Assembly: GCA_000002435.2 (NCBI GenBank)
Contig: CM018790.1
Reading direction: 5' to 3' (one strand)
DNA: 64,000 nt
DNA from: Giardia intestinalis
Lineage: Eukaryota
The notes under the pieces: generated by a model
Databases searched by the model: none
What the model saw: only the letters and a program-made list of their open reading frames with translations
What the model was told of the DNA's origin: nothing
Part shown: positions 35,713 to 61,889 of the stretch, in pieces
Layout: each line of letters begins with the position of its first letter
How positions within the stretch are numbered: the first letter of the stretch is position 1
Translations under genes and position numbers: made by a program

Positions 35713-35796
35713 TTGTTTTAATTAGATAGAAACTTTTGCTGAATAAAATGTATAGAGTTGATAAAAAGACGGCCACTTTGGCTTTCTGCTCTAACG

Positions 35797-37158: not shown

Positions 37159-37195
37159 TTGCTAATGACATTTTAGTGATTTGCTAACAGCTTTA

Positions 37196-37834: not shown

Positions 37835-37959
37835 ATTTCTAAAATGCAATCTTGAAATTTTTAATGAAGTTAAGTGACCAAATCATTGGGGCTTTTAAAA
37901 CCCTCTAATCATGACCCCCCCTAAATGCCCCGGTTTACTTGTCTATTGCACACTCTATC

Positions 37960-39478: not shown

Positions 39479-41140
39479 ATGCAGGAGGAGGACTCTGCAG
39501 ACGCTCTGTTCCTCTCGCCAAATGCGAAGGGTTACATGGACAGCCTGCGTAAGGAGGGTCTCATAGTCAAACGAGATACAAACATAAAGCACCTCAACAA
39601 CTCTCCCTTGTACTACACCATCCGCCTCATCCTAATTATCTACCTAGTCACCTTCATTTTAGCAACCATTTATAACGCATCCGATTTGCTTTTTTGTTAC
39701 CTCCAGGCGCCAGTTCACAGCATTCGCATAAGAAATACTTCCCTGCCTACGGAGAATAAAGGCTTCCTGTTTAACGCATCAAGCTATCACCCAGGAGAAA
39801 CTATAGCATATTATTTGCAAGGATACCTGAAGGACGTCAACATCGTTGTTCTCGAGCCGTATGGTTTGAATACCAACTACGAACCCAACAGTATTGAGGA
39901 AAAACAAAATTATCTAATTAACATCGATCCAAATGTTACCCCACGCTTGATTCAAGGAGCGTTTCCAATGGCTATCGTGATGAACGGCACCAATAGTGCA
40001 GATCCTGCACACAGCATATGCATGGACTCCCTGTGGTTTACCACGTTTCCAAAGGCATCTGTCAGGCCCACAGATGGCGGTATTGCGGCTAGTGTCGATA
40101 TCCTCAACCCTAACAGAAAGCGTATATGGGTTAACTCCATGTGGTATAGCTTCTCATATTGGAGTAGCGTGGAGAGCATATACAGCGACACCAGGTTTAC
40201 GGACGACCAGAAGAAAGCACATGGTATACCAAATCTTTCAGACGTCCCCAAGACTAATTATTACTGTACAACACAAATATCCAGCATTCTTCCCAGTCAG
40301 TACAACAAGTCTAATGTTCCCATCTGGTTTATGAACCTTAGCGAAGCTTCTACTGCTAGACTAAAGGGAATTATCTGCTCTAGTAACTATGGATTAGTCC
40401 TCAATTTATCAACGTGGTTCTGCATTTCGCCTCTTCTAATTTATGACTTACGCCTGAAAAAAGTTATGCTATCTAATGTAACCTTTAACGGTAACTTAGT
40501 TTTAGATTTTAGAACAGACGAAAAAGATTCATCTATTACTCCCGAGACATTTTCCTGCTTACATCCTGAGGAATTCTATATACCATATAACTTAATATTG
40601 AATAACTCTTCTCTTAGAATCATGACGGTAACAAAAGACATTAAAGAGCTCGTCATAGACTCCTTTGGCCAATCCAGTTTTACATTCACTATTCCAAAGC
40701 GTGTGCTTACGTGTACACCAGGTAACATTTCACTTGGGGCACCCATTGCTGCCAACGAAGAGCCGTGCAGGCTAGAATTCAGTGGAATCTCTGGCGAGTC
40801 CTACTTTACTGGAGACTTTCACAGATACTACTCGGCTAGATACATAGCACCCTTGAACAAGCTCACTGAGCTCACGGTTGTTGTTAATCTCCATGTCTTG
40901 GACGATTTGACTCTTTCATTTCCATTTTGTTCGTCAAAGGTTACCCCAAAGTTTCCTTTGAACGTAATGGACTCTAGAAATAATGCAATTTTTTCACTTG
41001 ATTATGTTGAGGATGCAGAGATTGTATTTAAGGGTGCTTCTTCTAACACAGTAGGCCAACACTTTGTTGCTACAGTCACCTGCGACGGGGCGGGGCGGGG
41101 GTTCACGCTCGCGCTCCGGGCGCAGCCAGCCAGGCAGTAA
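39479..41140 (+). CDS. hypothetical type-II-like membrane protein (N-terminal TM, N-glycosylation-site-rich ectodomain)
   Basis: ORF-track start is a GTG; the ATG is at 39479 ([11 protein letters not shown]). [24 protein letters not shown]. The last ~20 codons run into the GC-rich block. Confidence 0.45.
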
Positions 41141-41218
41141 ACGAGGACACGAGGCGCCGCTCCCGGGCCACACAACACGGTACTCTGCCATCTGTTCTGG
41201 TATTTTTCTCCGCTCCGA

Positions 41219-41291
41219 GGGCGGTTAGCTCAGTTGGTAGAGCGCTTGCCTAGCATGCAAGAGGCCGGGGGTTCAAATCCCTCATCGTCCA
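41219..41291 (+). tRNA. tRNA-Ala (anticodon AGC)
   Basis: Hand-folded cloverleaf. Acceptor gggcggt/atcgtcc with G3:U70 (the Ala identity pair). D-arm gctc-agttggtag-agcg. Anticodon stem cttgc/gcaag with loop cTAGCAt. T-arm ggggg-ttcaaat-ccctc. Discriminator A. Confidence 0.8.
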
Positions 41292-41991
41292 CTTTCCGTC
41301 CCGCTCCACCGCACGGCCTGCAGCTCAGCGCGCCCTTGTGGGGCCTTGTCGTGCTCGCTGGGGCGCTTCCTGTTAATTTCTGGGGCCTTGCTCTTCGCCG
41401 TAAATGACCGACCTTGACCATGTGTGCTGTTCTGTACATGCAGCAGCTAGTTGTGAGCCGCGCCATCACCCCGTGGACGACCGTGGTCTGCAGCTTGTTC
41501 AGCGCAGCTTTCACTCGTTCTTGTAAGTATAAAGGCGCGCAAATCATCTCCCTGTTAGTCAATATACTCAGCTAGTGGGTCTACAGTGTGCCGAGACTAA
41601 AGCTCGTTGTAGAATTTATTGCAGGCATACTTAGAAGCACACAGGATCTTCACAGCGCACAGCACGAGTCTAAACTTATCTAGTGCTAAACTTTCGAAAA
41701 AAGACTGACAGTAGACTCGCTATCCCTGGTAAACGGGCATATATGTGTGAATAAAATACCAGTAAGGCTATGCAGAGCAGGGTCTACGTTGAAGAGGCCT
41801 GGATCTCGAAATGGAAAGAGAAAATAGAGCAAAAAAGTGAAGAATATTCTTCGAAAACAAGCGGCAGAAATAGTCCTAGATGCTAGATGAAGCATATCCT
41901 GGTCACAGAAGCCGCCGGCGACGCCAAATCACAACCGTTACGCTATATTAATGCATCAGATTGTGGCCATATATAATATTTGCAGAAGACC

Positions 41992-42945
41992 ATGGTTGGC
42001 TGCTGTCTATCACCCGCTGACCAAATTGAGGTCCTTCGTAAGCTAGCTGAAGAAGTTATCAGGGTACGAAAGATCCAAGAGACTGCAAATGATCTTGTTG
42101 CAAATCCTTACAGACTTTATACTTACGTTATAAAAACGTCTGTAAACTGGCGCAAAATTGCCACGGAGATCAACCAAAATCGCAACAGGATCTACCACTG
42201 GTACCGTGAAACGCATCTAAGAAACATTCTGAACATAAAGATGACAGAAGAAGATCGTCAGATTATCCGTGGAATTATCATAGATGGGATTGAAAGCAGA
42301 AGGATTGTGAGAGAAGACATCTATGGAAAGGTTCGCGAGAAATTTGGGAAAAAGTATCCACGCCAAGAATTGCGGATGACTTATAACAATATAATCAACA
42401 GCCGTAGTATCAAAACCCTCTTCAAGAAGTGCGGTATTCAGCATTCCTCGAGACGCAGCAGATCATGTGCGGCCATCCATCACCCATCTAGCGCAGAGCA
42501 GTGCCTCCCTAACGAGGAGGTGTTTAAACCACCCGTATTTCGCCTACCTGGTTACAATGATGAAACCCCATCTTCTCCTCAGGACGAAGACGAAACAGGG
42601 ACGTCTGTACCTGAGAACTCGCTATCTGCGCCACCAGAGTCTGTTGCTTGCAGCATTGTCGAGCCAAGGAACCTACCATCCAGCCTTTCCTTGGTTCCGC
42701 CCTTCGCGCCCACTCCTAGCGCTGCTCCGAATGTTTATCCGATCCCGGGTGTCTATCCGGCCCCTGGTGCCGTCCCTTATCTCCAGGCGTCGGGGGTGCT
42801 CAGTCTACAGCCGACGCCCTACCCCTTCGGCTTCGGGGTGCCGCTGACATACGTCCCTGTTCTGATACAATCGCCAGGACATACTGGCGGATGGCCCGTG
42901 GGCACGGGTGACGGTCCGCTCGGAAGGCCGACCAGGCAGCCCTGA
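41992..42945 (+). CDS. Myb/SANT-like HTH protein with Pro-rich C-terminus (paralog B)
   Basis: VNWRKIATEINQNRNRIYHWYRETHL and TEEDRQIIRGIIIDGIESRR. Paralogous to 22032..22922 (shared blocks IRVR, LVANP, YHWY.ET, MTYNN, SSRRS). The ORF-track start is a TTG; the ATG is at 41992. Confidence 0.5.
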   Translation: MVGCCLSPADQIEVLRKLAEEVIRVRKIQETANDLVANPYRLYTYVIKTSVNWRKIATEINQNRNRIYHWYRETHLRNILNIKMTEEDRQIIRGIIIDGIESRRIVREDIYGKVREKFGKKYPRQELRMTYNNIINSRSIKTLFKKCGIQHSSRRSRSCAAIHHPSSAEQCLPNEEVFKPPVFRLPGYNDETPSSPQDEDETGTSVPENSLSAPPESVACSIVEPRNLPSSLSLVPPFAPTPSAAPNVYPIPGVYPAPGAVPYLQASGVLSLQPTPYPFGFGVPLTYVPVLIQSPGHTGGWPVGTGDGPLGRPTRQP

Positions 42946-45104
42946 GCCCCTGCTGCACCGCCTCGCACCAGAGGAGGAATCACGGTCTACAGCCAGAAGG
43001 GCAAAAGAGGCGCGTGGGTGGAAGCGCTCTCCCGATTTTCTTTTCGAGCTCGAACAGAACAGCCGTAGAGACTGTACGAAAACATCCTACAGTACCATCG
43101 AGGCCTCGCACGGAGGGGTTCTGAATGGACGAACGCCTAGGCTGGGAGCCATTCTAGAGCCGATTCTGGCCGAGGAAGGGGCTCCCCGCTTACGGGGGCA
43201 TGGCGGCTCCGCTGGCCACGTACGGCGACAGTTGCCGGGTCAGCGGCCCAGCCAAACCAGCGATGCCGCTGCGGAAGCCACCCCCGGCCCTGTCCCACAC
43301 AGTCGATGCCCTTGGCAGCCGCCTGCTCCAGTCCAGATCCACCCCACCGGCTGCGTGCCAGGGCCAGACATCTAGCAACCACAGAGACACGTCCACCGAG
43401 GCCGACACTGGCTGCACACACCGACCGGCGCGTCGATTCGAGGCACAGACGCGCATTTTTTCTTTTGTCCGGCGAGATTCCGGGCTGCGCTGGCTGCACG
43501 GATGCACGCAGCTGTTCCGCGCCGGCCGGGGCTTTCCGAGGCAGGCCTTGCGCGAGAACGCGACGTCTCGTGCAGGTCCACCGACCCTCTGGCGGGCCCA
43601 CGGCCGCGGAGTGTCCGTCCCTGTTGCGATGCAGTGCACACGGCTTTGTAGCACGTGCAGAGACCCAGTTGCCCTGCCCTGGCTGTGGCTCCTGCGCGCT
43701 GCGGCCAGCCACTGAGACCAGCCCCCATTGGAGCAGGCCACGGCAGGGCCCGCCGGACAAGCTCTCTACATGAGCACATGCTGCACAGCTTAGAGGCGAA
43801 CGCTGCACAGCCCGGCTAGTGCTCGCTGCCCCTATCGCTGCGTGGTACCTCTTCGTGAGACGACTGCGCAAGGCCACCCGATCGAGGGCTACGGCAGGAC
43901 GCAAAGAGTGGACTAGTTCAGGGCGTTGTGCATCTAGTAGGCCTGTGAGTACGCCTAGGTCGTGTATAGCTATTACATCAACATACTCATGTAGGTGGAT
44001 ACAACTGATTGCTCCGAATGGACTGGTTCTTGATGGCGTGGGCTGATGGAAGGACGCATTTGTATTACAGGTCCAAGCATAGAGGGTGGCAGCAGGAAAC
44101 GAAAAGTGGCCTGATTGCTGGTGTGCAGGTAAATGCAGCTATTTACATTTGACTTACCTAGCATACTGGATGATCATACTGATTGGATTCCGATAAAATG
44201 CATGCACGAGACTTACTGGTGTCTACTGATTTAAGAATTGAATGAGCAAACGCTAGGATAAGCTTGGTATGCCAATAGATAAATCACATTTAGGGAGGTA
44301 ACAATGAAATTTGTAGGAATAAAGAGACGCTCATAATATGCTGTTTCGATGATAGTAAAGGCTCTAGCACGAAGTTCATTAATCTATTATCAACAGAGAT
44401 AATAAGAAATCCAGGAGAAATGATAGCGAATCTATAATACACCCCATAAAAGGCTATAAGCACTATGGGATAATTAAGAAATGTGAAGGATATACCAGAG
44501 AATGTTATTTAAAAGGAAAGAAGTGCGTATTCAAAATCAGCAATAGTAACAAGGATAGCCTCGTTGCCAAGGATTCCATCACTGTCATCCTTATTGTCAA
44601 CCTTTCTGTCAGAGGTTCTTTTACTGTAGGAAAGTATAAACATAATCATCTATTTAAGTGGTAAACGCATCGTCTAACATCTGCTCAGCAGCCTTACACA
44701 GAAGTCCCGAAATAAGTAGTCACGGGGCAGAGTCTCCTGACGCTGCCAAATAAGCATATATAGTGCTCCCTCTGCATGGAGCACTGGAGGCCCGGCACGG
44801 AGTGGCCACAACTTCTCGTGGATACAGGCTGGTCGAAGCCGCTGGTGGCTGTATCCTCCAACCCCCTGCTTCAGAGCGTGGCTGCGCATGCTCTGCACGG
44901 CGCCTTCTCCTGCAGTGTCCGTGCGCTCGCCGGATGGAGCGAACCCAGCTAGCTACGCGGCCGCCACTGCAGGCCCCTCTTCACCCTGTATGCAGAAGCG
45001 CTGACCCGGGAAGAGGTGTCCCAGGGAGCCACGGGCAGCTGGTTGGAGTGAAACACGTTGGGACTTTTTGAAAATGGCCCTGTCCCGTGCCGGCCACGCG
45101 GCCT

Positions 45105-45725
45105 CTAGACCAGCGAGGCGAGGAGCTTCTTGATCCCTGGGCGCGCACGGTAGCCATCAGATAGCTCGCGCAGCGGTGGAAACTGGTCCACGAGCTCCGG
45201 ATACTCTGCGTCCGCATAATACAGGACCTCCAGGACCGCGTAGTCCGAATAGAGCGGCTCGGGAGCCAGGCTCCGGAGGCTCAGCACGTCCCGGGTCAGA
45301 ACGGTCAATCCCGGAAGGATCCTGTTCTGTCGGTAGGCCGCGATGCACTCCGAGCGCGTCATCTCTGCCCCAGCGGCAAGGGCCTCTGCCACGGCTTCGG
45401 GCTCCTTCCAGACGGCGGCAAGAAGATCCTCACAGAAGAGCACCAGGGCCCGCGCAGCAGCCTGCACCTGCAATGACGTGCTGTACCGCCCCAGGCTCGC
45501 CCCCAGGTACTCTAGAATGACCATGCCCCCGGCCACCCGCGCTGCGCTGTCTTCCCACACGGGGAGCGTGCACGATGGTGCACCTACCTTCGCCGCGGCC
45601 ACCTGCTCAGCGCTCGCCAAGGGCGCCCACTCGTACCGTATCTCCAGGTCTGCGAGCAGGAGCCGGCACTTCAATGCGGTGCCCCGGGCGTCGTAGTACG
45701 TGAGTCTCGGCGGAACTACGTCCAT
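45105..45725 (-). CDS. glutathione S-transferase-fold protein (sigma/alpha-like cytosolic GST), GC-rich codon usage
   Basis: MDVVPPRLTYYDARGTALKCRLLLADLEIRYE...LPVWEDSAARVAGGMVILEYL aligns to the sigma-GST N-domain (KLTYFNMRGRAEIIRYIFAYLDIQYE...IPILEVDG..SLAIARYL). The C-domain aligns too. The ORF-track start is a TTG; the ATG is at 45725, preceded by 'gggaagtaaa'. Confidence 0.5.
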   Translation of the reverse strand: MDVVPPRLTYYDARGTALKCRLLLADLEIRYEWAPLASAEQVAAAKVGAPSCTLPVWEDSAARVAGGMVILEYLGASLGRYSTSLQVQAAARALVLFCEDLLAAVWKEPEAVAEALAAGAEMTRSECIAAYRQNRILPGLTVLTRDVLSLRSLAPEPLYSDYAVLEVLYYADAEYPELVDQFPPLRELSDGYRARPGIKKLLASLV

Positions 45726-46813
45726 TTTACTTCCCCGGTGGGCTCGTATCAACCGTGCCAAGGTGCGAGGCAACCCCTGGCACGCGGGCCGCCTCTCCCA
45801 GGGGGAGATCCTTGGGTTTCAGTTTACAACCTGAGCACCAGCTTCGTGTAGCTGCTATGCATTGCTAGCTACTACTGCCTGCATAGATAGTGGTGGGGTT
45901 GGGGTGGACACTAGGCTGGCGCGGTTTATGGAGGTCGTCTGCCTCCCGGGTCGCTTGAACCTAGCCGGAGTCTTCCCATTGGACCCTCTAAGTCATATCA
46001 CGAATCATAGGACGGATAAACTAGCCCCTAGCGGGTCAAAAGGGTCGGCAGTGATCGCAGCCACTGTGTCACTCGAGGACCTGTTGAGGCCCGGGACTCT
46101 GCAGAAGCCCCTCACTAGCTCGGTCTTGAAGTCCACGCTCTTGTGTGCCAAGATCCACGTCTTGTTATGCGTGCCGTGCTTTCCAGTACAATCGTGCTTA
46201 TACTTGTCGCCCTCTCTAATGCAGCTTCTAATGCTACCATGACGGGAGTTCTCGCTGTTTTGTACTTCATGTTTGTCAACACGGCCTAGGTGCCCTGCTG
46301 TCTGCTCTGCAGTCGCTTTATCTCCTGCTAAAAGGAAGTGAGAGCTCTTGGGTATCCGGTAAGACGTCCGGGCAAACGCGATAATGCTTCGATGAGTGTA
46401 CGTTAGTCGCATCGGCACAGAGCGCGTGCTAACCGGACGAAGCCATGTGCCTGCTGACTTCTATACAATATTCTAAGGCTATCCGGTCTCTGCATGGCAC
46501 CGCCAGGTGTGTAGTGGGGCCTGTGGCCATTAAGACCCAGAAGAGCCTCTTCTCCTACTTGGCTTCGGAGTCACTCCCAGTAGAGTATTGTTATGAGGCT
46601 GGTGTGCAGAGAAACACCGAATAGTTTGTACCGGTACACATGACCCCTTATCCCCAGACGGCACTCGCCATGGCTAGGCATTCGTAGAACCGCAGCATCG
46701 TGGGCTTGTGCACCGCTCACTGCCCATGCACGTGTAGCTGCAGACACACAAGCCAGTCGAGAGGCGCTTGCTTGCCCGGCTCCCTCATCACTGTTCAGAA
46801 CATCGAACTCCTT

Positions 46814-46893
46814 ATGCGAGCCACCGCCGCCCTGGGCAAGCGGGTCTCCCTCATCCCTGCATCAACCAAGATCAAAACCTAGAGTTCGAACTC
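46814..46893 (+). repeat. 80-bp repeat unit, copy A of an internal inverted pair
   Basis: atgcgagccaccgccgccctgggcaagcgggtctccc...ctagagttcgaactc. About 80% identical to the reverse complement of 48391..48465; the first 35 nt differ at 2 positions. Confidence 0.55.
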
Positions 46894-48390
46894 AGGTGTC
46901 AAGCGACTCTGGTGGGAGAAAAAGAACTTTTGTTCTGCCCTCTTCCCAAGAACGAGACAGGACAACCACGATCAGGGGACGATCATGATACGCTCCACAA
47001 GGCAGCCCCGAGCCGCCTGGAGACCAGACCCTGGCCTTCCTCGAGACCTAGCAGATTGCGTTCCACTGGATGTACATGGGTGGCGTTTGCATGGCGCAGG
47101 GAGACGCAGGCTGATGGGTACAGCGGTCTTGCTCGACATAATGAACTCCAACAGTAGACGGCCTCTGCCAGGCGAGTGTGCCCCGTCCCGAGGAGCTGCG
47201 TCGGGGCCTTCCTCCGGCTGCGACACACGAGGTATCTGGACTCGGTCCCTCAGGGCCCTGCGCATGCTTCTGTGCTGCGGGAGACAGAACCTGCTCGCCA
47301 GGAGCTGAAGGAGAGGCCCCGCTCAGTACCCATGCCGACGACACATTCAGCTTCCATAGTGACGACAAGCCTGGCGAAACGCTATAGCTCGACGGTCAAC
47401 ACTGGGTGTGGGAGCACTGAGGGGCAGGAGGCCTCCTTTCTAACTAGTCTCGAAGGAGCTTCCAAGACAACGAAGAGCCGAAGCTAGTGATGATGCGCCG
47501 ATCATTTGCCACGCTTGTCGAGATGGACCCACACGTGACCTATGTGAATCCCTCGACAGGCAAGTCGGCCCTTGGGGTGCTTGGCTGACAGAGGCGGACT
47601 GATCCCGACCGCACCGAAGAGTGGTAGCGGCTTGGACCACCTGCCGGGCGTCTGCCGCAGTAGCTGGCAGTGTCTGACATCCTCGAGTAGATGGGCGCCA
47701 AGCGAGACGGCCTGAGGGTGAACCAGTCCTGACCGCTCCCGGTGTCTCAGACGACGCCTCTTAGAGAGGTGGCCCTGGACCGACGCCTCGACAGACCGAA
47801 GCATCACCCCAGGTGTGCTGTGCGGTGTGAAGACGGACGTAGTCCGCATCGTCAGCTGAGCCAGACGCACTGCACAGGGTGAGCGTCGACATGATCTCGT
47901 GCTAGGTGATGGACCACCTGCAAGAGCGCACTGCGATCCATGGGCAGAGGGATGGGCCTCTTCCCCGACACCACCGCATGGGATTACTCCATCGGCATCC
48001 ATGAACGCGTACTCTGACTCCAAGACAGAGGCGTACGGGGGGCGCGCTCTCCCGGTCATACTCGGGACCGATGATACAATCCACGAGGAGACGAAGAGGC
48101 ACCCCGAGGAACGGGGTAGACACCCGGGGTCGTGGCGTATCCCATCTTCGTCGTAGAGCATCAGCGCCACAAAGCTACTCCGGAGTACATGGCCAGAGTC
48201 AAGCTTCCAAGGCCAGATCCTGTGACCGACGGCAGGCCCTGATATAGCGGGTGTCCACCCAGGTGCCAGACGATAGTTGACTCCGATGGGTCAGAGGAAG
48301 GGAAGTCCTAGAGGGCACCGCGAGGAGCGGCAGCTTCCAGGGGAAGCGGGAATAGGAGTTCTTCCGCCGGGATCAAGGGCATCCGCCTCT

Positions 48391-48465
48391 CGAACTCTGG
48401 ATTTGGATCTCGGCTGGTACAGGGGCGAGAGAGACTCGCTTGCCCAGGGTGGCGGTGGCTCGCAT
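48391..48465 (-). repeat. copy B (inverted) of the same repeat; with copy A brackets a ~1.5-kb segment
   Basis: The reverse complement reads atgcgagccaccgccaccctgggcaagcgagtctctctcgcccctgtaccagccgagatccaaatccagagttcg. Confidence 0.55.
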
Positions 48466-51400
48466 GGGAAGATTACTCAGATAGCAGGCGACAGCCCCAC
48501 CCCGGCTAAAAAACTTGAGGCAGCCGTTGCACCCGCCGCCCCCAGGACAGAGCTTCTGCACGCATGGCCAGCTGCCCTCGTCAGTCCGGTCTACTGGTCC
48601 AATAGTCTGGGGACCCTTTACGCCGTTTTCTGGCATACGATGTATCGCAACTGCTCATGGGAGTAAGCAGTATGAAAAGGCAATTGCATGTGTGGACAGC
48701 GTGTTATGCTCGTCTCAGAGGACCGATGTGTCTAAATACGGATCGCTGTACTGAGCCACACGCCCCACTGTCTTGCGCCAGTGACTGCCTCCACCACTGC
48801 ACTTGCTACAATGGAGCTGTGTCGGCCCAACAGATTGAACATGCCCCATATCGGCTCCCTCTGACGATGCGTACACGCCGCATAAGGTCTGATAGTAGAG
48901 CGGACACCGTGTGCCGAGGCGTCTGCCATTGATGGGAGACAGCACTTGGTTGCACCAGAGGTGCCTTTATGTAGGCCTACAATCTCTGTGCCTGCCCATC
49001 CACCGGTTGTAATGACAACTGCACACTCGGAAAGGCGCTATGGAAAGCTGCCTTTCAAGATGAGACGTAAACCCACATATAAAGCCAGAAGCAGAACCTT
49101 GTGCACAAACTGTTATGATCCTAGTGTGGTGACCGGTTTGGACTGCGGCACGCTCCTCGCCTATCTTATGTTCGTTTGCATGGTCGCTGCTAATGTTGAA
49201 CAGGACTGCGAGGAGATCTGTCTTTGGCTGCGCTCATCTTATAACACTTACCCCTTGATGACACACCTTAGCAAAGGAGGATGTCAGCCAGGTGCGTAGA
49301 AGGCTGCCCGTGCATGACGATTCCTGGAGAACTGGTTCATACAGAGAAGGTAGAGGTGACTAGCGGACCAGTTGGGCAAGGCTGACACCAGAGAGGCCAG
49401 CCACCGACCTGGATTGCAATAGGGACGCCTGTAGTGTCTTTCTTCCCTTCGGGTGTAGAAAGGTCGTGAGGCCCGCGGACAAGCTAGACGCTGCTTTCTG
49501 ATTTTATGCATTTGTAGCAGCATAGTGTTTATAGGGGTCTGCTTTGCCTGAGGCCGAGGACGTTCGCTTCCTCCTCGTATACGGACGAAGATCGGTTATA
49601 AGGATACACTGTGCAGGCTGGTACCAGTCGACGTGGTTGCTGTCCACAAATGTCTCGCCTGCGTCTTCTCATGGCAGATGATTACTAGCAGCGCTCTCAG
49701 CCCACGTGGCTAAGTCTACGGTGCATCTCCATTTCGGTCAAGGGTTGTATACGCATTACGTAGTCTGATTGATCATCAGCCAGGATAGTGTGGTCCACTC
49801 CTGTCCCCTGCTTGTCCATCTCGTGCAACTACTGCTGATGGCTTTTCTGGGTCAGTGGGTGCTTCCGTCAGTCCCACAAAGGAATGTGTCATGCAGACGG
49901 CCACTACAGGCAAGAGTCTTGTCTATCAAGAAAAGGGTCAATCGGTTTACTGCGTGGGGATCCTCTGTGCGTCTCATATAAGCCCGGCAGACCTTGTGCC
50001 CCCAGTATCTCCTCACAAGCCCCACCAGGCTCTTTTACCGTCTGGAATATCGCTACTGCCAAGCACCTTAGCTTCACTTGGCCACCCAGGGCGTTGACCC
50101 TTTGCAGCGCACTGTGGGCGTACTCACTGTGGGAGATGCACAATCAGCATTGGTCTTCTCAGCTCATCGTCTGTATGGTACTATGCTGCTTCTCAGCACA
50201 ACCCATTCTGTCGACCAGCAGGCCTTCAGACCAGGCAGCATCCCACCAAGGGGCGGTAGCAGGGACCGTGACGCGTATCTCCACCAAGGCACGGCCTCCT
50301 GGGGCATGAAGCGGGACCTCTGCCATCCTGTGGCCCTACTGATTCCTCGGATAGCAGAGATCGGAGCAGCCTAGGCTAGCGCCTTTGGGTCTCCATCTGT
50401 TCTCGTTGTCTGAGGTATACTTGACTCCAGAGACTCAGAAGGGTGCTGTACTATGTTCGTGCCTACGAGTCTTAGCCAGGCAGGGCTACCCTCTTGGAGA
50501 TTGCGCTGAGGTAGCCACATACCTGGAGCTCACCACAGCGGACCCACAGGGTCCAATCCATGGAACCCTTACCTGTCGAATGCAGGCCGTAATTGCAGCC
50601 CCACTGGTGCAGACTTTCTTAGAATAACCGGTCGACTATAGAGCCCCCCCCCACTCAGTCCACGTGAATGGACCACTCTCATCGATGGCCTACCTTGCAC
50701 GCCGAACGATCCCTACAGGCGAACAAAAATCATCCAGCCCGTAGCAGTGGACATCCTCTACACCGATGAATGGATGATCACAGCAGCCGCTTTCCTATTG
50801 AAGATTCTCCAGCCACTGAGGCCCAGGCCGGCCTCCTGCAGGATTCTTAGCAGGATCGTGCCCGATGCATGTTTGTGGCACTCCCCTCAAGGTGTATTCT
50901 GTTGGACCTTCGCTTCCTATACTGGCCTGCGAACATCGAGCCCTTCTAGCGGGGCCATACTGGAGATCACAAGGATATGGTGTCTTCGGAGACTATCCGG
51001 CTTCTGAGCCACACAATAGGGGCCCACTTCTCGCAGCAGCATCACGGAGAGGTGTATAGAGCTATACCATACCCTCTACCAGGTGACATGATGCATAAAT
51101 TAAGGGTAGGACACTTACACCGATCGGCATATCTACCCATGACCAGACACAGATTGGCCCGAAGGTAGCAATTAAATGTTGCTCGACACCCTTATCAGTG
51201 GATGGGCGCCCAACTACCCTGGTACCCGTACGAGGCCACAAGGGGCGCTGGGTCATAGATCTACTTAATGGCTGAGAAAGCGGCATGGACGCATCAGACC
51301 CCCATTCTTTCTATTCAAGTAGCCCACGACAGAGAGCCCTTTGACACTCCACACCCACAGGTTCGGGGTGCTGCGGGCAATCGTACTCCACTATTGCTTG

Positions 51401-52223
51401 CAGCGGATGGCATCAGGATAACCTTGGGTGGGAGAGAGTTGACTGGCCCAGAAAGCAGCGGTTTGGATAGCGTTTCCTCTCTGCCCAGGCTTGGAAGGTC
51501 TAGCCTGCGCCTTCTGCGCTTCACCTGACACCTCGTTGTGTACTGGGGTGGCTTATTAGTATTTACTCCAAAAGATCAAAACTAGCGCCATGTGCACTTA
51601 GCAGGCCGGTGCGCCTCGTTAGCTAGTTTATGCTGGCTTACGCCTTCCACAGACTCTAGCGGCTGCTGGGATCTTCTCTCGGGATCCAGCAAAGGTTTGT
51701 CTTTGAGCGTAGCTCCCCTGCGACAGCAAAGGGTCGCGGGCATGATCTGGTGGGTGGGAATACTAGGAGCGGATAGGAGAGTGCCGGCATACATGGGCCC
51801 GTAGAGCTCTAACCAGCGCAGGGAAGTGCAGGTGTCTGGCTCTCCGGAAATGCAGAGGCGCCGGTAGCGGGCATGGGCACAGTGGGGGCGCCCGGGCTGT
51901 CCTCCGATTGGCCGCGGAGAAGGGGGATGCCCGGCGCACGGGACGGTTCTGCTGTTTGCTTTTAGAATTTCTACTTCCTTGCGTGCTTTGCAAGGAGTGC
52001 GGGGCTCCTCGGATGTCGCTTGGCCAGGCCTGGAGGGCCCGCGATGGACGAGGTGGTGGGCTTATATAATGAACGCGTTTGGCATTCGCTGGGCTCCTCC
52101 TTCCTAGACCGAGGTATCGTAGGAGTAGGGTCTCTTCGGACTACCTGCATAGCACAGTCAGATAGACGTTTTTAGCTCTAACTATCGGACTCTTATCTAT
52201 GTAATAAGCCGAGAGGGATATCA

Positions 52224-52991
52224 ATGTTACTCATAGCCTTCTACCTTGTGCTAAGTACGCTCGCTGTCCGGCATACAACAAATCACCACTCTGAATATCT
52301 ACGCTCGGGATCTCGGTCTAATAGAGATACAGGCAATCGTGATAATGCATATGCTGCAGGGAACTGCAAGGACGGGATGGAAGAGCAGGTCGGCGCGGAT
52401 ACCGTGTGCAAGCAGTGCAACGCAGGGTTTGTCCCCATAAACGGAGTCTGCACCGCACAGGGCACCCCATCAATTGCGACCGCAGGGTGCAAGCTGGCCA
52501 ATAATGACCCTCCTGGACAGGACTCCACTGTGTGTGAGCAGTGCGGAACAGACGCCACTTACTTCCTATACAAGGGCGGATGCTACGACGCCAGCACAGG
52601 CGTGGGGCAGAGCCTTTGTAAGCGCGCATCTAACGGAGCCTGCACAGAGGCGGGAGAAGGCTACTTTGCTGCACCAAACGCCAAGGCTACCGAGCAGTCT
52701 GTTATCCCGTGCTCGGACACGACAGGGGTGACTCTCACCGGAGATAAGCAATACGTGGGGGTGGAGAACTGCGCGACGTGTGATGCTCCAGCTGGAGATG
52801 AAACGGTAGCAAAATGTAAGACATGTAGTGACAGATTCAGTTTAAGAGACAACCAATGTGTGCCTTCTAGCGTCAACAAGAGCGGCCTTTCTACCGGCGC
52901 CATTGCGGGCATCGCCGTGGCTGCTGTCATAGTTGTTGGTGGTCTCGTTGGGTTCCTCTGCTGGTGGTTCCTCTGCCGGGGCAAGGCGTAG
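52224..52991 (+). CDS. VSP: variant-specific surface protein (VSP), short 255-aa member
   Basis: Signal peptide MLLIAFYLVLSTLAV, CxxC motifs, GGCYD motif, TM AIAGIAVAAVIVVGGLVGFLCWWFL and the invariant C-terminal CRGKA. True ATG at 52224. Confidence 0.85.
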   Translation: MLLIAFYLVLSTLAVRHTTNHHSEYLRSGSRSNRDTGNRDNAYAAGNCKDGMEEQVGADTVCKQCNAGFVPINGVCTAQGTPSIATAGCKLANNDPPGQDSTVCEQCGTDATYFLYKGGCYDASTGVGQSLCKRASNGACTEAGEGYFAAPNAKATEQSVIPCSDTTGVTLTGDKQYVGVENCATCDAPAGDETVAKCKTCSDRFSLRDNQCVPSSVNKSGLSTGAIAGIAVAAVIVVGGLVGFLCWWFLCRGKA

Positions 52992-53003
52992 ATGTACTTA
53001 GGT

Positions 53004-53010
53004 AGTAAAC
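53004..53010 (+). promoter_or_regulatory. putative polyadenylation signal AGTAAAC (AGTRAAY) 13 nt after the VSP stop
   Basis: tag atgtacttaggtAGTAAACgcg; mirrored on the minus strand at 55693..55699 for the second VSP copy. Confidence 0.45.
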
Positions 53011-55711
53011 GCGTTACTTTATGTAGCTTATGTAGATGTGCTGCTAGGCTCACTTGCTGGTGTGTCCAGAAGTTTCACGAGTAAATCCTCGTTCAAGTCC
53101 TGGCTGTCCAAAGACGAGAACTGATTGTGGATAACATGACGGAGAGTCCTCTCCAGTGATGCATCCAGAGCCTGGTGCGCTCCTCTGCCGTTTCGCAGGC
53201 GTGTGCTCAGGCTGAGTATGCACGTCGGTCCTTTCGGGGTTCAGGCCTTCTCGTGGACTCTCTGCTCTACCAGCGGTGTCTCTCCTTGGTCTTCCTTCAC
53301 GGTGGGTGAAGCTTGGATCGCCGTCTTTTTTAGATGCCCCGTCTGTCAGGGGCTGCCATCGGGCTCTCCGCTGGCCGCCCCTCGGTGTCCGTCCGGCTGT
53401 GTCCCGGGTCAGCGCTTCTACAGTCGCGGTCACGTAGGTCTCAGTGGGCCAGCTGGGGGGTGGGGCGGGGGTATGGGCGGTGAGGCTGGAGGGGACCGGG
53501 TGGGGGCTGAGGTGGGGTGTCCGTATGTGATCCTGGGTCCGGTGGGTCATTGCGGTGGTGGGTGATCCCCGCTCTGTTTGCTAAGGTGGTTGTGTCTGAT
53601 CACCAGCCTGCGTTGCACTCCCGAGACAGAGGCACCGACGATCGTGTCGTGTCCCCCGACTGAGCGCCTCCCTTAGCCCCTGCATGTCTCAGGCAGTACT
53701 GCTGCTCTGTCTGGCTGGTGCGTGAAGGGTGAGGCAGGCCATCGCAGCCCCTCCTGATGCTCTGCGCGGGTCTGCTGAGCCCCTGGCATGCCCTGTCCAG
53801 TGCCTCGACGGGGAGTTCGCCTCGGGCCAGCAGGGGTGTGGATGACCTTGTGAATGGGATGGGGTTCTCTCAGGCCTCTAGTGTGATGGCCCAGAAGACT
53901 GGCACGGTGGGGCACCAGTGACTGCACTGTCCCCGTGGTCAGCTGTGCTGCTCCTGGTGGGTCCTTGTCATGGAGCGCTGTGTGTTGTTCATAGGCAGAG
54001 GTGATCCCTCTTGGTCTCAAGATGCTCTACCAGCAGAGAGAAGCACGCTGAGGGTCACCCAACATCACCTGCTGTGTCCTCTTGGGAGTTCCCGATGTGA
54101 TCTATCAGGACCTTGACACCTCCTCGTGGCTCTGATGACCCCTCGGGGAGAGCCGGCATCCTATACTGAGGGGCGTACACCTTCCTGCATGAGCTGGGCC
54201 CCACTGCACTGCCCCCAAGGAGGTCTGCTATGAGAGGCAGTGGGATGATTGACAGCCCCTCAGAGTGCGGTGGAGGGTGCTCGTGGTCATCTCTGTGACC
54301 GGGCATCACTCATGATGGTCGGCTCTGTGCCTTATGGTGCTCAGAGACCACCTGTGCTCCATCGCCTGCTGGACAGCCGGGCCTCTTGTGGCGTCCGAAG
54401 GTCTCCTCACTCCTCTGGTCACTGCCCCCTCGGATCATCGGTGGAGGCCAGCGAGTCTTCGGAGTCTGGTGCCTGCCTGGGTGTCATGGGGGGCTGGCAG
54501 CTGTCAAGGCTCTGCCACTGCTCACCTGCCTGGAGTGTGCCTCCCTTGGGCCTGCTTTGCTGTGCTGCTTGAGTCCTCTGGCTTCTATCAGGCCCTGGTT
54601 GTGAGGGTGACCCCACCTGGCCTTCTGATGCCCCTGTGGATGAGCATAGCAATGTGTCTGGCTGGGGATCTCTAGTGCCCGTGTCTGTCACTGCCTCTCG
54701 GGTGCTCGGGTAGTTGCCTGGCGCTCTCGTATGGGCACACAGTCAGCGTATGTGGGTGGTCCTCCTGCACTCGTGTCCGTCTGTGTGCACTGTCACTCAG
54801 TCTCGAGAGCAGGCCAGTGCAGTCACCAGGGCTGCTGTCAGAGGGAGTCGTCTGCCACTACCATCGCTCGAGCAGCCCCTGCAGATCAGGCTGGTTGCTG
54901 TGCACCCTCATGGCAGGGCTGCTTGGCTCCCTTGGTCTCCTCTCTGTCCCGGTGTGCACGGCTCCTTCGGGTGGCTGACGGGGTAGTGGCCTCCGGTGAG
55001 TCTGCACTGGGAGGCACCGAGGAGGGAGGACAGCTAGGCTGGCACCACTCTCTGACTCCTGAGGGTTGCCTGGATGGAGGCACTCACGAGTCCACAGAGG
55101 GGTGAGTTATAGATACACAGCCCCCAGTCACCACAGCTGCGATCACCCCAGTCTATCGAGTGGCCAGGGGCACAGACAACACCGCTCCAATGGCCCACCA
55201 GTCCCCTCCAGCCTCACCGTCCCATACTCCCGCCCCACCCACCATCCGAACCCACTGAGACCCAGGTGACTGCGACCGTAGAGCGCTGACTCGAGTCACA
55301 GCCGGACGGACACCGAGGGGCCCAGCCAGGGGAGAGCCCCGACAGCAATCACCGAGTCAGACGGGGCATCTAAAAAAGACGGCGATCCAAGCTTCACCCA
55401 CCGTGAAGGAAGACCAAGGAGAGACACCGCTGGTAGAGCAGAGAGTCCACGAGAAGGCCTGAACCCCGAAAGGACCGACGTGCATACTCAGCCTGAGCAC
55501 ACGCCTGCGAAACGGCAGAGGAGCGCACCAGGCTCTGGATGCATCACTGGAGAGGACTCTCCGTCATGTTATCCACAATCAGTTCTCGTCTTTGGACAGC
55601 CAGGACTTGAACGAGGATTTACTCGTGAAACTTCTGGACACACCAGCAAGTGAGCCTAGCAGCACATCTACATAAGCTACATAAAGTAACGCGTTTACTA
55701 CCTAAGTACAT

Positions 55712-56479
55712 CTACGCCTTGCCCCGGCAGAGGAACCACCAGCAGAGGAACCCAACGAGACCACCAACAACTATGACAGCAGCCACGGCGATGCCCGCAA
55801 TGGCGCCGGTAGAAAGGCCGCTCTTGTTGACGCTAGAAGGCACACATTGGTTGTCTCTTAAACTGAATCTGTCACTACATGTCTTACATTTTGCTACCGT
55901 TTCATCTCCAGCTGGAGCATCACACGTCGCGCAGTTCTCCACCCCCACGTATTGCTTATCTCCGGTGAGAGTCACCCCTGTCGTGTCCGAGCACGGGATA
56001 ACAGACTGCTCGGTAGCCTTGGCGTTTGGTGCAGCAAAGTAGCCTTCTCCCGCCTCTGTGCAGGCTCCGTTAGATGCGCGCTTACAAAGGCTCTGCCCCA
56101 CGCCTGTGCTGGCGTCGTAGCATCCGCCCTTGTATAGGAAGTAAGTGGCGTCTGTTCCGCACTGCTCACACACAGTGGAGTCCTGTCCAGGAGGGTCATT
56201 ATTGGCCAGCTTGCACCCTGCGGTCGCAATTGATGGGGTGCCCTGTGCGGTGCAGACTCCGTTTATGGGGACAAACCCTGCGTTGCACTGCTTGCACACG
56301 GTATCCGCGCCGACCTGCTCTTCCATCCCGTCCTTGCAGTTCCCTGCAGCATATGCATTATCACGATTGCCTGTATCTCTATTAGACCGAGATCCCGAGC
56401 GTAGATATTCAGAGTGGTGATTTGTTGTATGCCGGACAGCGAGCGTACTTAGCACAAGGTAGAAGGCTATGAGTAACAT
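55712..56479 (-). CDS. VSP: variant-specific surface protein (VSP), identical second copy, convergent with 52224..52991
   Basis: Identical 255-aa translation ending ...FLCWWFLCRGKA on the minus strand. Confidence 0.85.
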   Translation of the reverse strand: MLLIAFYLVLSTLAVRHTTNHHSEYLRSGSRSNRDTGNRDNAYAAGNCKDGMEEQVGADTVCKQCNAGFVPINGVCTAQGTPSIATAGCKLANNDPPGQDSTVCEQCGTDATYFLYKGGCYDASTGVGQSLCKRASNGACTEAGEGYFAAPNAKATEQSVIPCSDTTGVTLTGDKQYVGVENCATCDAPAGDETVAKCKTCSDRFSLRDNQCVPSSVNKSGLSTGAIAGIAVAAVIVVGGLVGFLCWWFLCRGKA

Positions 56480-60237: not shown

Positions 60238-60312
60238 ATGCGAGCCACCGCCACCCTGGGCAAGCGAGTCTCTCTCGCCCCTGTACCAGCCGAGATCCAA
60301 ATCCAGAGTTCG
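60238..60312 (+). repeat. mirror copy of repeat B in the right arm
   Basis: atgcgagccaccgccaccctgggcaagcgagtctctctcgcc... read directly at 60238. Confidence 0.55.
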
Positions 60313-61809: not shown

Positions 61810-61889
61810 GAGTTCGAACTCTAGGTTTTGATCTTGGTTGATGCAGGGATGAGGGAGACCCGCTTGCCCAGGGCGGCGGTGGCTCGCAT
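61810..61889 (-). repeat. mirror copy of repeat A in the right arm
   Basis: Reverse complement of gagggagacccgcttgcccagggcggcggtggctcgcat at ~61850-61889. Confidence 0.55.

What the first reader, a model, noticed from the sequence alone, without database searches (positions are those of the whole stretch)
41080..41300. tRNA-Ala sits exactly at an abrupt compositional boundary
GC content jumps from ~47% to >60% about 140 bp upstream of the tRNA, inside the last 20 codons of the 554-aa ORF. From there it stays high for >22 kb. tRNA genes often act as chromatin boundaries or insertion targets. The neighbouring ORF's C-terminus (…[20 protein letters not shown]) looks as if it was overwritten by GC-rich sequence.
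Basis: partly seen in the sequence, partly recalled or inferred. Interest (0 to 1): 0.5.

Follow-up and report, generated by a model that had tools for sequence, protein, structure and literature searches.

The report
Edge of an ancient Giardia palindrome
The sudden rise in GC content next to the tRNA-Ala gene is real, but it marks the outer edge of an old inverted duplication carrying surface-antigen (VSP) genes, whose two copies keep correcting each other, and is not a recent insertion at the tRNA.

Summary
The window is Giardia intestinalis WB chromosome 2. tRNA-Ala(AGC) lies at 41219-41292, and maximum-likelihood segmentation puts a GC step at 41080|41081 (45.7% to 62.7%). GC does not stay above 60% afterwards. 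The right side averages 57% and has two conserved AT-rich troughs.

The step is a structural junction. From about 41071 rightwards, the last 22 codons of the 553-aa gene, the tRNA and a 317-aa gene also exist as a second, inverted copy. That copy abuts gene GL50803_0010979 in assemblages A, B and E. The window's perfect 8.6-kb inverted repeat (44703-53345 / 55358-64000) is cut by the window end. It surrounds the published VSP pair d117204/117204 and is most likely the inner part of the same palindrome.

The copies are identical within a lineage but 15-25% diverged between lineages, so they evolve in concert. GC steps up at both outer edges. GC-biased gene conversion between the arms is the likeliest cause, but this is inferred.

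The ORF tail, the tRNA and the downstream genes are syntenic in A, E and B, no empty site exists, and the block contains conserved coding genes. GC-rich VSP islands and inverted VSP pairs are already published.

The parts
39479..41140 (+). 553-aa membrane-protein gene, identical to WB GL50803_0061276. Its stop codon TAA (41138-41140) lies inside AGTAAAC, which matches the Giardia polyadenylation motif as I recall it.
   Evidence: 100% identity to P0005 over 553/553 residues. Orthologues occur in P15 (87%), assemblage B (76%) and G. muris (29%).
41071..41081 (.). Outer (left) edge of the inverted duplication, coinciding with the GC step.
   Evidence: Homology between the A-side and B-side copies begins at 41071 in assemblage A and at the 41080 equivalent in P15. 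The GC breakpoint is at 41080|41081. Megahit contig L003 stops at 41211, about 140 bp into the repeat; this would equal k-1 if k = 141, which I infer from the contig name k141.
41072..41140 (+). Last 22 codons plus stop ([22 protein letters not shown]) of the 553-aa gene, lying inside the duplicated arm. GC is 74%.
   Evidence: A copy of this fragment sits upstream of the 330-aa gene in assemblage A (L009, L010), in P15 (L007) and in GS (the N-terminal extension of GL50581_1999).
41219..41292 (+). tRNA-Ala (anticodon AGC), 148 bp inside the arm.
   Evidence: It is 100% conserved in the A, E and B loci, and a second copy lies on the B side (L007, L009, L010).
41081..41520 (.). 440-bp GC-rich island (62.7%) around the tRNA, mostly intergenic.
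   Evidence: The same GC profile is seen in P15 and in assemblage-B contigs. No Rfam family other than tRNA matches.
41992..42945 (+). Conserved 317-aa gene. Its N-terminal domain belongs to a multi-copy Giardia family and is AT-normal; its C-terminal half is Pro-rich and GC-rich.
   Evidence: Orthologues in P15 (82%) and assemblage B (69%). The WB-P15 alignment has no indels and mismatches concentrate at the third codon position (65/34/25).
42946..43960 (.). GC-rich (64%) non-coding arm DNA. The overlapping ORFs on both strands are spurious.
   Evidence: The WB-P15 alignment has 22 indels, 21 of them 1 nt long, and no codon periodicity. GC is 62-69% in both lineages at 68-82% identity. No Pfam hits.
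43961..44720 (.). AT-rich trough (38.7%) inside the arm, also AT-rich in P15.
   Evidence: The arm homology in contig L009 ends here, at 44161.
45105..45773 (-). GST-like gene (65% GC). The likely ATG is at 45725. A duplicate lies at 62930-63598 (+).
   Evidence: Pfam GST_N_2, E = 6e-6. It is syntenic in P15, with codon-periodic mismatches (54/17/27).
44703..53345 (.). Left arm of the perfect inverted repeat, as far as the window allows it to be seen.
   Evidence: 8643 nt, 100% complementary to 55358-64000. The pairing ends only because the window ends at 64000.
52224..52991 (+). VSP gene, 255 aa, with a CRGKA tail. It is the left member of the tail-to-tail pair.
   Evidence: Pfam VSP, E = 2e-30. 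It matches Xu 2020 Table 2: chromosome 2, d117204/117204, '-> <-', 255 aa, 2720 bp apart.
53346..55357 (.). Spacer between the arms (63% GC, T>A skew). The repeat continues at 94% identity to 53504/55194, leaving about 1.7 kb that is unique.
   Evidence: No Pfam hits.
55712..56479 (-). VSP gene, 255 aa, the identical right member of the pair.
55358..64000 (.). Right arm of the perfect inverted repeat, truncated by the window end.

Best explanation
The GC step at 41,071-41,081 is the outer edge of an ancient inverted segmental duplication (a palindrome) on Giardia intestinalis WB chromosome 2.

Layout. The left arm starts 22 codons before the stop of gene GL50803_0061276. It then carries tRNA-Ala(AGC), a conserved 317-aa gene, about 2 kb of GC-rich non-coding DNA, a GST-like gene and a 255-aa VSP gene. 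A spacer of about 2 kb separates it from the mirror-image right arm. The window shows only the inner 8.6 kb of that arm. By symmetry (x maps to 108703 - x), the right arm should end near 67,632, about 45 bp upstream of the ATG of GL50803_0010979.

Shown:
- The same two outer junctions exist in assemblages A, B and E, so the duplication predates their split.
- The two copies are identical or nearly identical within a lineage but 15-25% diverged between lineages, and they share lineage-specific substitutions and an indel. They therefore evolve in concert by arm-to-arm gene conversion.
- GC rises by 10-17 points at both outer edges. It stays at 62-69% in non-coding arm DNA in both A and E despite about 30% divergence.

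Inferred:
- The GC enrichment is a by-product of GC-biased repair during the recurrent conversion.
- The copy next to the 553-aa gene is the original, and the other arm merely carries a dead 22-codon fragment of that gene.
- WB's right arm reaches all the way to GL50803_0010979.
- The tRNA is a passenger 148 bp inside the arm, not the cause of the boundary.
For: Organism and locus:
- The ORF is 100% identical to WB GL50803_0061276.
- The VSP pair matches Xu 2020 Table 2 exactly: chromosome 2, 255 aa, 2720 bp apart.

Palindrome and second copy:
- The inverted repeat is perfect over 8643 nt and is cut off by the window end.
- P15 contig 55 (L007) carries the arm next to a 330-aa gene. It is 100% identical over 1099 bp to P15 contig 52 (L001), which carries the arm next to the 553-aa gene. 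Identity begins at the 41080 equivalent.
- Assembly GCA_000498715.1 (L009) and metagenome contig L010 carry window 44161..41071 and 42649..41071 respectively, reverse-complemented, next to the same 330-aa gene, each with a tRNA-Ala.
- Five Logan contigs begin 75-87 bp upstream of that gene, which is where a repeat edge would break an assembly.
- WB GL50803_0010979 lies on the same 1,539,535-bp record as the ORF.

Assemblage B:
- The N-terminal extension of GS protein GL50581_1999 matches, over 37 residues with two mismatches, the reverse-strand translation of assemblage B's own ORF 3' end. The match includes the B-specific 3-nt deletion.

Concerted evolution:
- The AII-type A-side contig L003 shares the three AII B-side variants (41100C, 41167A, 41197T) against WB.
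- The P15 copies are 100% identical to each other but 77-85% identical to WB.

GC:
- WB: A flank 45.7%, arm 55.8%, spacer 63.2%.
- L009: arm 55.2%, B flank 46.3%, with a 100-bp step from 0.73 to 0.39 at the junction.
- P15: flanks 40-42%, arm 57.1%.
- The GC profiles of A, E and B superimpose.
- In two further lineages the B-side edge is recognisably homologous to the arm edge and is AT-richer than the homogenised copies of A, E and B. This fits decay after escape from homogenisation, but their A-side copies were not seen.
Against: - The window stops at 64000, so continuation of WB's right arm to GL50803_0010979 is inferred, not seen.
- In L009 the B-side arm homology ends at 44161 and is followed by a different VSP and by PGK. 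The interior therefore differs between isolates, or that contig is misjoined.
- Three AI-type Logan contigs (L004-6) run from the flank through the edge to 42624. A strict two-copy exact repeat should not allow this in a de Bruijn graph, and I cannot explain it.
- Evidence for GC-biased conversion is only correlative. Polarised substitution counts are small and do not separate the models. For AI versus AII with a P15 outgroup, the GC-rich arm segments show S>W 29 against W>S 21, with equilibrium GC 0.55-0.56 against 0.49 in the flank. For A versus E with a B outgroup, equilibrium GC is 0.46 in the arm against 0.40 in the flank.
- Two AT-rich stretches persist inside the arms in both A and E. 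Conversion bias alone does not set the composition.
- The G. muris tail gives only weak information on which copy is original.
Confidence: 0.72

Rival explanations
1. A GC-rich block (41.1-64 kb) was inserted at or next to the tRNA-Ala gene, used as an integration target, in this isolate or lineage. The insertion overwrote the C-terminus of the neighbouring ORF, and other isolates keep an empty site.
For: There is an abrupt GC step at 41080|41081 inside the ORF. The tRNA lies 138 bp away. Sequence beyond about 46.8 kb has no counterpart in the P15 locus.
Against: - The ORF tail, the tRNA and the 317-aa gene are syntenic in A, E and B with the same GC profile.
- Synteny with P15 runs to 46.8 kb and includes the GST-like gene.
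- No direct repeats of tRNA fragments were found, and only one tRNA lies in the window.
- No integrase or transposase domains occur in the arm ORFs.
- GC-rich non-coding DNA holds its GC level in two lineages that are about 30% diverged. It is not a decaying foreign relic.
Confidence: 0.03
2. Ancient overwriting. The original arm was the copy next to GL50803_0010979. Before the assemblages split, its inverted copy landed in the 3' end of the 553-aa gene and replaced the native tail. The gene now borrows its last 22 codons, its stop and its poly(A) signal from arm DNA.
For: - The last 22 codons have the composition of the arm (74% GC) rather than of the gene (about 43%), and the switch falls exactly at the duplication edge.
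- The G. muris orthologue has an unrelated, longer tail of 33 aa after the conserved Cys.
- The residues just after the edge vary between assemblages (DGAGRG, NEAERT, ESTERT).
Against: - The G. muris alignment continues about five residues into the arm (T-[VI]-[TA]-C-[DN]).
- FTLALRAQP is invariant in A, E and B.
- In two other lineages the fragment on the B side is AT-richer and diverged, as expected for a non-functional passenger copy.
- On the B side the fragment has no reading-frame context.
Confidence: 0.15
3. The high GC is a selected or functional property of VSP loci, for example chromatin or epigenetic control of VSP expression. It is not a by-product of gene conversion, and the coincidence with the duplication edge arises because the whole functional island was duplicated.
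For: - Franzen 2009 (PMC2723961) reports that WB regions carrying VSPs are high-GC islands and suggests a regulatory role.
- The fine-scale GC pattern, including the AT-rich troughs, is conserved between A and E. This looks more like local constraint than a uniform bias.
- The substitution tests do not demonstrate a bias.
Against: - GC-rich non-coding stretches evolve fast, at 68-82% identity with many 1-nt indels. Divergence between AI and AII is 2.7-4.7% in these stretches against 1.3% in the flank. That argues against sequence-level constraint.
- The GC step falls within 10 bp of both duplication edges.
- The B-side edges in the two further lineages, which look unhomogenised, are AT-richer.
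Confidence: 0.2
4. The palindrome and the boundary are assembly artefacts, such as a fold-back or chimeric long-read assembly or a collapsed repeat.
For: Identity of 100% over 8.6 kb is what an artefactual fold-back would give. Exact look-ups of WB proteins in the contig index failed, so the WB record itself could not be re-read.
Against: - A spacer of about 1.7-2.0 kb that is unique and compositionally asymmetric lies between the arms.
- The VSP pair is reported in the published optical-map-supported assembly. Inverted VSP pairs were already reported in the literature before genome assemblies (vsp1267, as cited in PMC2996952).
- Both outer junctions are seen independently in 454, Illumina and metagenome assemblies of several isolates.
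Confidence: 0.03

Closest known systems
Giardia VSP inverted identical gene pairs (vsp1267; Adam et al. 2010, PMC2996952; Xu et al. 2020, PMC7000408, Table 2)
   Same: Two identical VSP ORFs lie tail-to-tail, 2720 bp apart, with flanks identical up to an abrupt divergence point. This very pair (chromosome 2, d117204/117204) is listed by Xu 2020.
   Different: - Adam 2010 describes flank identity of only 139-729 bp and regards the pairs as probably recent. Here the perfect arms are at least 8.6 kb and most likely about 12.3 kb.
- The arms carry a tRNA and two non-VSP genes.
- The outer junctions are shared by assemblages A, B and E. The frame is therefore old and kept uniform by conversion.
High-GC VSP islands of the WB genome (Franzen et al. 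2009, PMC2723961)
   Same: The region around a VSP is gene-poor and has GC well above the genome average. Its inner part is absent from the syntenic locus of another assemblage.
   Different: Here the island's edge can be placed to within 10 bp and equated with a duplication edge. The outer 5.7 kb of the island is not isolate-specific and is conserved in assemblage E, with 1.9 kb also conserved in B.
Large palindromes with arm-to-arm gene conversion, such as the primate sex-chromosome ampliconic palindromes (from my own knowledge, not tested against a paper here)
   Same: Long inverted arms with about 100% identity surround a unique spacer. The arms are more alike within a lineage than between lineages, although the duplication predates the split. 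The arms are GC-enriched relative to the flanks.
   Different: This is a protist that is thought to be mostly asexual and tetraploid, the scale is much smaller (about 12 kb arms), and the cargo is an antigenic-variation gene. GC-biased conversion is not demonstrated here.
tRNA-gene-associated integration sites and tRNA insulators (bacterial genomic islands, Dictyostelium TRE and yeast Ty3 targeting, yeast tDNA barriers; from my own knowledge)
   Same: A tRNA gene lies within 150 bp of a sharp structural and compositional junction. From 65 tRNAs in 12.6 Mb, I estimate the chance of that for a random point at about 0.002.
   Different: There is no presence/absence polymorphism, no flanking tRNA-fragment repeats and no mobile-element genes. 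The tRNA lies inside the homogenised arm and so does not stop conversion.

Membership tests
Giardia VSP inverted identical pair | Two identical ORFs with VSP hallmarks (Pfam VSP domain, C-terminal CRGKA) in inverted orientation | tested here: met
   52224-52991 (+) and 55712-56479 (-) have identical translations ending in CRGKA. Pfam PF03302, E = 2e-30. Both lie in the 100% inverted repeat.
Giardia VSP inverted identical pair | 2-4 kb of non-coding DNA between the two genes | tested here: met
   2720 bp separate the ORFs, equal to the Xu 2020 Table 2 entry. The spacer ORFs have no Pfam hits.
Giardia VSP inverted identical pair | Flanks identical up to an abrupt point of divergence | tested here: met
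   The inner divergence is at 53345/55358, falling to 94% identity until 53504/55194. The outer divergence is inferred at 41071 from other isolates. This is far longer than the 139-729 bp in Adam 2010.
Palindrome maintained by arm-to-arm gene conversion | The duplication predates lineage splits (orthologous junctions in several lineages) | tested here: met
   The same B-side junction, 45-54 bp upstream of the 330-aa gene, is present in assemblage A, in E and in B. Two further lineages show a recognisable remnant.
Palindrome maintained by arm-to-arm gene conversion | Copies are more similar within a lineage than between lineages and share lineage-specific changes | tested here: met
   P15 copies are 100% identical over 1099 bp but 77-85% identical to WB. 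The AII A-side shares three AII B-side variants. Both copies in assemblage B share a 3-nt deletion. The WB arms are 100% identical over 8643 nt.
Palindrome maintained by arm-to-arm gene conversion | GC-biased fixation in the arms (excess of W>S over S>W relative to the flanks) | tested here: inconclusive
   A GC step at both edges is present. Polarised counts are too small: equilibrium GC is 0.55-0.56 in GC-rich arm segments against 0.49 in the flank, with n = 18-32 per segment, and the three-assemblage test gives 0.46 against 0.40.
tRNA-targeted insertion / genomic island | Presence/absence polymorphism with an intact empty site in relatives | tested here: not met
   A, E and B all have ORF tail, tRNA and 317-aa gene in the same order.
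tRNA-targeted insertion / genomic island | Duplicated tRNA fragment or target-site repeats at the island ends, and mobility genes inside | tested here: not met
   No direct repeats in 40-64 kb. Only one tRNA in the window. No integrase, reverse-transcriptase or transposase domains in the arm or spacer ORFs.
tRNA gene acting as chromatin boundary (tDNA insulator) | TFIIIC/Pol III-dependent separation of chromatin states on either side | not testable with these tools
   This needs ChIP, ATAC or expression data. From sequence alone, homogenisation and high GC extend 148 bp past the tRNA to the junction, so the tRNA does not coincide with the edge.
High-GC VSP island (Franzen 2009) | GC above the genome average around a VSP, gene-poor, and breaking synteny with other assemblages | tested here: met
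   The arm is 55.8% GC and the spacer 63.2%, against 45.7% in the flank. There are only 3 credible genes in 12 kb of arm. P15 synteny ends near 46.8 kb.

The most novel reading that the evidence does not exclude
Giardia's GC-rich VSP islands are made by GC-biased gene conversion inside long-lived palindromes. This locus would be a frame older than the split of assemblages A, B and E, whose outer edges have stayed fixed to within 10 bp. The inner cargo (VSP genes) is swapped lineage by lineage. The tRNA gene next to the edge, acting as a fork-stalling or fragile site, may have set the breakpoint at which the inverted duplication was originally sealed. If true, it would give direct sequence evidence for frequent intrachromosomal recombination shaping base composition and antigen-gene turnover in a putatively asexual, tetraploid protist.
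Probability: 0.2. Interest if true: 0.65.

Novelty: new member of a known kind. Interest (0 to 1): 0.42.

Why it matters
Practical consequences:
- The sharp GC step and the odd GC-rich tail of GL50803_0061276 are explained.
- It warns annotators. The GC-rich arm throws up long spurious ORFs on both strands. The 51-aa N-terminal extension of GS gene GL50581_1999 is antisense read-through into the arm.
- It explains why short-read assemblies of this locus break at the same points.

Biological consequences:
- At least one identical VSP pair sits in a duplication frame older than the assemblages, kept uniform by gene conversion. Adam 2010 regarded such pairs as probably recent.
- The locus offers a concrete, testable link between arm-to-arm conversion and the already-reported high-GC VSP islands.

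Tried and rejected
- Exact look-ups of the WB proteins failed: the 553-aa ORF, P0005 and the 255-aa VSP all returned nothing. WB sequence beyond the window could not be read.
- Two scans of JGI metagenome contigs, one for the B-side junction and one for the promoter of the 317-aa gene, returned nothing.
- Rfam at a permissive threshold over 40.9-45.2 kb found only the tRNA. No hidden ncRNA explains the GC island.
- Pfam scans of 16 ORFs in the GC-rich arm and spacer gave no credible domain. I treat these ORFs as spurious.
- Polarised W>S versus S>W counts were inconclusive, both for A/E with a B outgroup and for AI/AII with an E outgroup.
- Simple binary segmentation of GC gave only the 42446 split. 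I replaced it with optimal partitioning.
- I first assumed contigs L016-18 were assemblage B. Cluster names show that assemblage B is the P0029/P0058 cluster, so L016-20 are other, unnamed lineages.
- A search for the gene identifiers in the paper library, and for supplements of Xu 2020, found nothing.
- I considered horizontal transfer as the origin of the GC-rich block. I rejected it because the GST-like gene and its GC level are shared with P15 in synteny.
Full report
**Identity of the window.** The 553-aa ORF at 39479-41140 is 100% identical to Giardia intestinalis WB protein GL50803_0061276. Gamma-tubulin lies just upstream on the minus strand. Two identical 255-aa ORFs ending in CRGKA (52224-52991 +, 55712-56479 -) hit Pfam VSP at E = 2e-30. 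They are tail-to-tail and 2720 bp apart. This matches the entry 'chromosome 2, d117204/117204, -> <-, 255 aa, 2720 bp' in Table 2 of Xu et al. 2020 (PMC7000408). The window is therefore WB chromosome 2.

**The observation.**
- tRNA-Ala(AGC) is at 41219-41292.
- Optimal-partition segmentation of GC places a breakpoint at 41080|41081, with 45.7% before it and 62.7% for the next 440 bp.
- No 440-bp window in the left 41 kb exceeds 55.2%.
- The right side is not uniformly above 60%. It is a mosaic: 62.7% (41081-41520), 43.7% (41521-42620), 64.4% (42621-43960), 38.7% (43961-44720), 64.8% (44721-45800), then about 57%.
- The best single change-point for the whole window is 42446 (47.1% against 57.4%).

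The position of the step is right, 'exactly at the tRNA' is off by 138 bp, and 'stays high' is only partly right.

**Is the ORF tail overwritten, and is the block an insertion?** No, at least not within G. intestinalis.
- The tail ...TVTC(DGAGRG)[12 protein letters not shown] is conserved in P15 (assemblage E) and in assemblage B sequences.
- The tRNA is 100% conserved and in the same place in both.
- The next gene (317 aa, 41992-42945) is present full-length in E (82%) and B (69%).
- blastn aligns P15 contig 55 with window 41068-45710 colinearly at 77% identity, and again with 46074-46802.
- In that alignment the 317-aa gene and a GST-like gene (45105-45773, minus strand; Pfam GST_N_2) behave as coding sequence, with third-position mismatches and no frame-breaking indels.
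- 42946-43960 and 45774-46800 behave as non-coding, with almost only 1-nt indels and no periodicity. They nevertheless hold 62-69% GC in both lineages.
- The 100-bp GC profiles of A, E and B around the tRNA superimpose.

Beyond about 46.8 kb the P15 locus no longer matches. This is the usual behaviour of VSP regions.

**What the boundary really is.** The repeat finder shows a perfect inverted repeat, 44703-53345 against 55358-64000 (8643 nt, 100% identity), whose extent is limited only by the end of the window. It continues at 94% identity into the spacer as far as 53504/55194. The key result came from the P15 assembly.
- Contig 52 (L001) runs from the 553-aa gene through the tRNA.
- Contig 55 (L007) has the same 1099 bp at 100% identity, preceded by a different gene of 330 aa on the minus strand.
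- The identity starts at the equivalent of window 41080.

The 330-aa gene is GL50803_0010979 in WB, on the same 1,539,535-bp record as the ORF. Other assemblies confirm the second copy.
- In NCBI assembly GCA_000498715.1 (AHGT01000003; an assemblage A isolate, which I believe is DH/AII, from memory), window 44161..41071 lies reverse-complemented directly upstream of that gene at 97.4% identity, with a tRNA-Ala on the minus strand.
- A metagenome contig (L010) shows the same for 42649..41071.
- The junction alignment places the start of homology at window 41071 (TACAGTCACC...), 45 bp from the ATG of the 330-aa gene.
- Five Logan contigs start 75-87 bp upstream of that gene. Megahit contig L003 (name prefix k141) ends at 41211, about 140 bp into the repeat, which is what a repeat edge does to an assembler at that k.

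For assemblage B, the annotated GS protein GL50581_1999 has a 51-aa N-terminal extension. Thirty-seven of its residues ([36 protein letters not shown]) match, with two mismatches, the reverse-strand translation of assemblage B's own ORF 3' end. The match includes the B-specific 3-nt deletion.

Two more divergent lineages (L016-20) keep a recognisable remnant of the same fragment at the same place, and it is AT-richer.

The segment beginning at 41071 therefore exists twice, in inverted orientation, in A, B and E, and the event predates their split. By symmetry (x -> 108703 - x) the right arm in WB should end near 67,632. That part is inferred.

**Concerted evolution.**
- P15's two copies are identical to each other yet 15-23% different from WB.
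- An AII-type contig of the A side (L003) carries the same three variants (41100C, 41167A, 41197T) as the AII B-side copies, and differs from WB at all three.
- Both copies in B share the deletion.
- WB's visible arms are 100% identical.

This is the signature of recurrent arm-to-arm gene conversion.

**Composition.** GC steps up at both outer edges.
- WB: A flank 45.7%, arm 55.8%, spacer 63.2%.
- L009: arm 55.2%, B flank 46.3%, with a 100-bp drop from 0.73 to 0.39 at the junction.
- P15: flanks 40-42%, arm 57.1%.

The coincidence of the GC step with the duplication edge to within 10 bp on both sides needs explaining. So does the retention of high GC in fast-evolving non-coding arm DNA in two lineages, and the AT-richer state of the B-side edges in the two further lineages. 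GC-biased gene conversion is my preferred cause.

The evidence is correlative. Polarised substitution counts are too small to separate a maintained equilibrium from slow decay. With AI/AII and an E outgroup, GC-rich arm segments give S>W 29 and W>S 21, with equilibrium GC 0.55-0.56 against 0.49 in the flank. With A/E and a B outgroup, the values are 0.46 against 0.40. Two AT-rich stretches persist inside the arms. A functional or selected GC island, as Franzen et al. 2009 suggested for VSP regions (PMC2723961), remains a live rival.

**Which copy is original?** The G. muris orthologue (GMRT_14239) aligns through T-[VI]-[TA]-C-[DN], about five residues past the edge, and then has an unrelated 33-aa tail. 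Together with the AT-richer fragment on the B side in two lineages, this weakly favours the copy next to the 553-aa gene as the original. The other arm would then carry a dead 22-codon fragment. An ancient replacement of the tail is not excluded. I give it about 15%.

**Role of the tRNA.** The tRNA lies 148 bp inside the homogenised arm. It neither coincides with the edge nor stops conversion. There are no target-site or tRNA-fragment repeats and no mobility genes. With 65 tRNAs in 12.6 Mb, a random breakpoint would fall within 150 bp of a tRNA gene with probability of about 0.002. A causal role in the original rearrangement, for example fork stalling, is therefore possible. It is a single, post-hoc case. 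The chromatin-boundary idea cannot be tested here.

**What is already known.**
- Identical inverted VSP pairs separated by 2-4 kb (Adam 2010, PMC2996952; Xu 2020; also in G. muris, PMC7641422).
- Duplications of up to 20 kb, and gene-poor, SNP-rich VSP surroundings (Xu 2020).
- High-GC VSP islands (Franzen 2009).

I did not find the following in the searched literature: the age and conserved outer junctions of this palindrome, its concerted evolution across assemblages, or the equation of the GC step with the arm edge.

**Verdict.** This is a real and well-explained feature, an instance of a known kind with some new evolutionary detail, and of moderate interest.

**Caveats.**
- WB's right arm beyond 64 kb was not seen.
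- L009's interior differs from WB after 44161.
- Three AI-type Logan contigs cross the edge and all stop at 42624, next to the second GC rise. I cannot explain this.

Noticed in passing
window 44703-53345 and 55358-64000: An 8643-nt inverted repeat at 100% identity, truncated by the window end, surrounds a tail-to-tail pair of identical 255-aa VSP genes. It continues at 94% identity into the spacer as far as 53504/55194.
   Followed up: yes
window ~42624 (L004, L005, L006 ends) and 42649 (L010 end): Three Logan contigs from AI-type samples cross the duplication edge and all stop at 42624. A SPAdes contig coming from the other side stops at 42649. Both points lie right at the second GC rise (42620). 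The cause is unknown; it could be the start of exact arm identity, heterozygosity, or RNA-seq data.
   Followed up: partly
P0058 (GS GL50581_1999), residues 1-51; compare L008 3360-3520 reverse strand: The annotated 381-aa GS protein carries a 51-aa N-terminal extension. It is antisense read-through into the duplicated arm, covering the ORF fragment and the pre-tRNA spacer. This is almost certainly an annotation artefact; the real protein is 330 aa.
   Followed up: yes
L009 1-6862 (GCA_000498715.1, AHGT01000003): In this assemblage A assembly the B-side arm homology ends at window 44161, inside the AT-rich trough. It is followed by a 609-aa VSP, PGK, Cluap1 and a proteasome subunit rather than the GST-like gene. 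This is either a different interior or a misjoin.
   Followed up: partly
window 43961-44720: An AT-rich trough (38.7% GC, down to 33%) sits in the middle of the GC-rich arm. It is also AT-rich in P15 and is non-coding by its indel pattern. Its function is unknown.
   Followed up: partly
window 22050-22520; L007 17771-18583: The N-terminal domain (about 150 aa) of the 317-aa gene belongs to a multi-copy Giardia-specific family. One paralogue lies at 22 kb in the window (40% identity), and a very GC-rich paralogue lies in the P15 island. There is no Pfam match.
   Followed up: partly
window 41084-41101: Just inside the arm, WB reads DGAGRG where P15 has NEAERT and assemblage B has ESTERT or EPTGRT. 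The WB-specific residues come from GC-increasing changes (GAG to GGG, ACG to GGG).
   Followed up: partly
Xu 2020 Table 2 (PMC7000408): All 12 tail-to-tail VSP pairs in WB are 2526-2813 bp apart. This is a strikingly uniform spacing and suggests a common spacer element. In the window the spacer is 63% GC with a persistent T>A skew.
   Followed up: no
window 33000-38000: There is a strong AT skew of +0.28 to +0.32 at 33-35 kb and -0.19 to -0.25 at 36-38 kb. It probably reflects purine-rich coding strands of oppositely oriented genes, including the 1118-aa coiled-coil protein.
   Followed up: no
window 42946-43960 and 46-52 kb, both strands: Many overlapping ORFs of 100-255 aa occur on both strands of the GC-rich arm. 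They are Arg/Pro/Ala-rich, have no Pfam hits and are not conserved as coding sequence. They could easily be mistaken for genes.
   Followed up: yes
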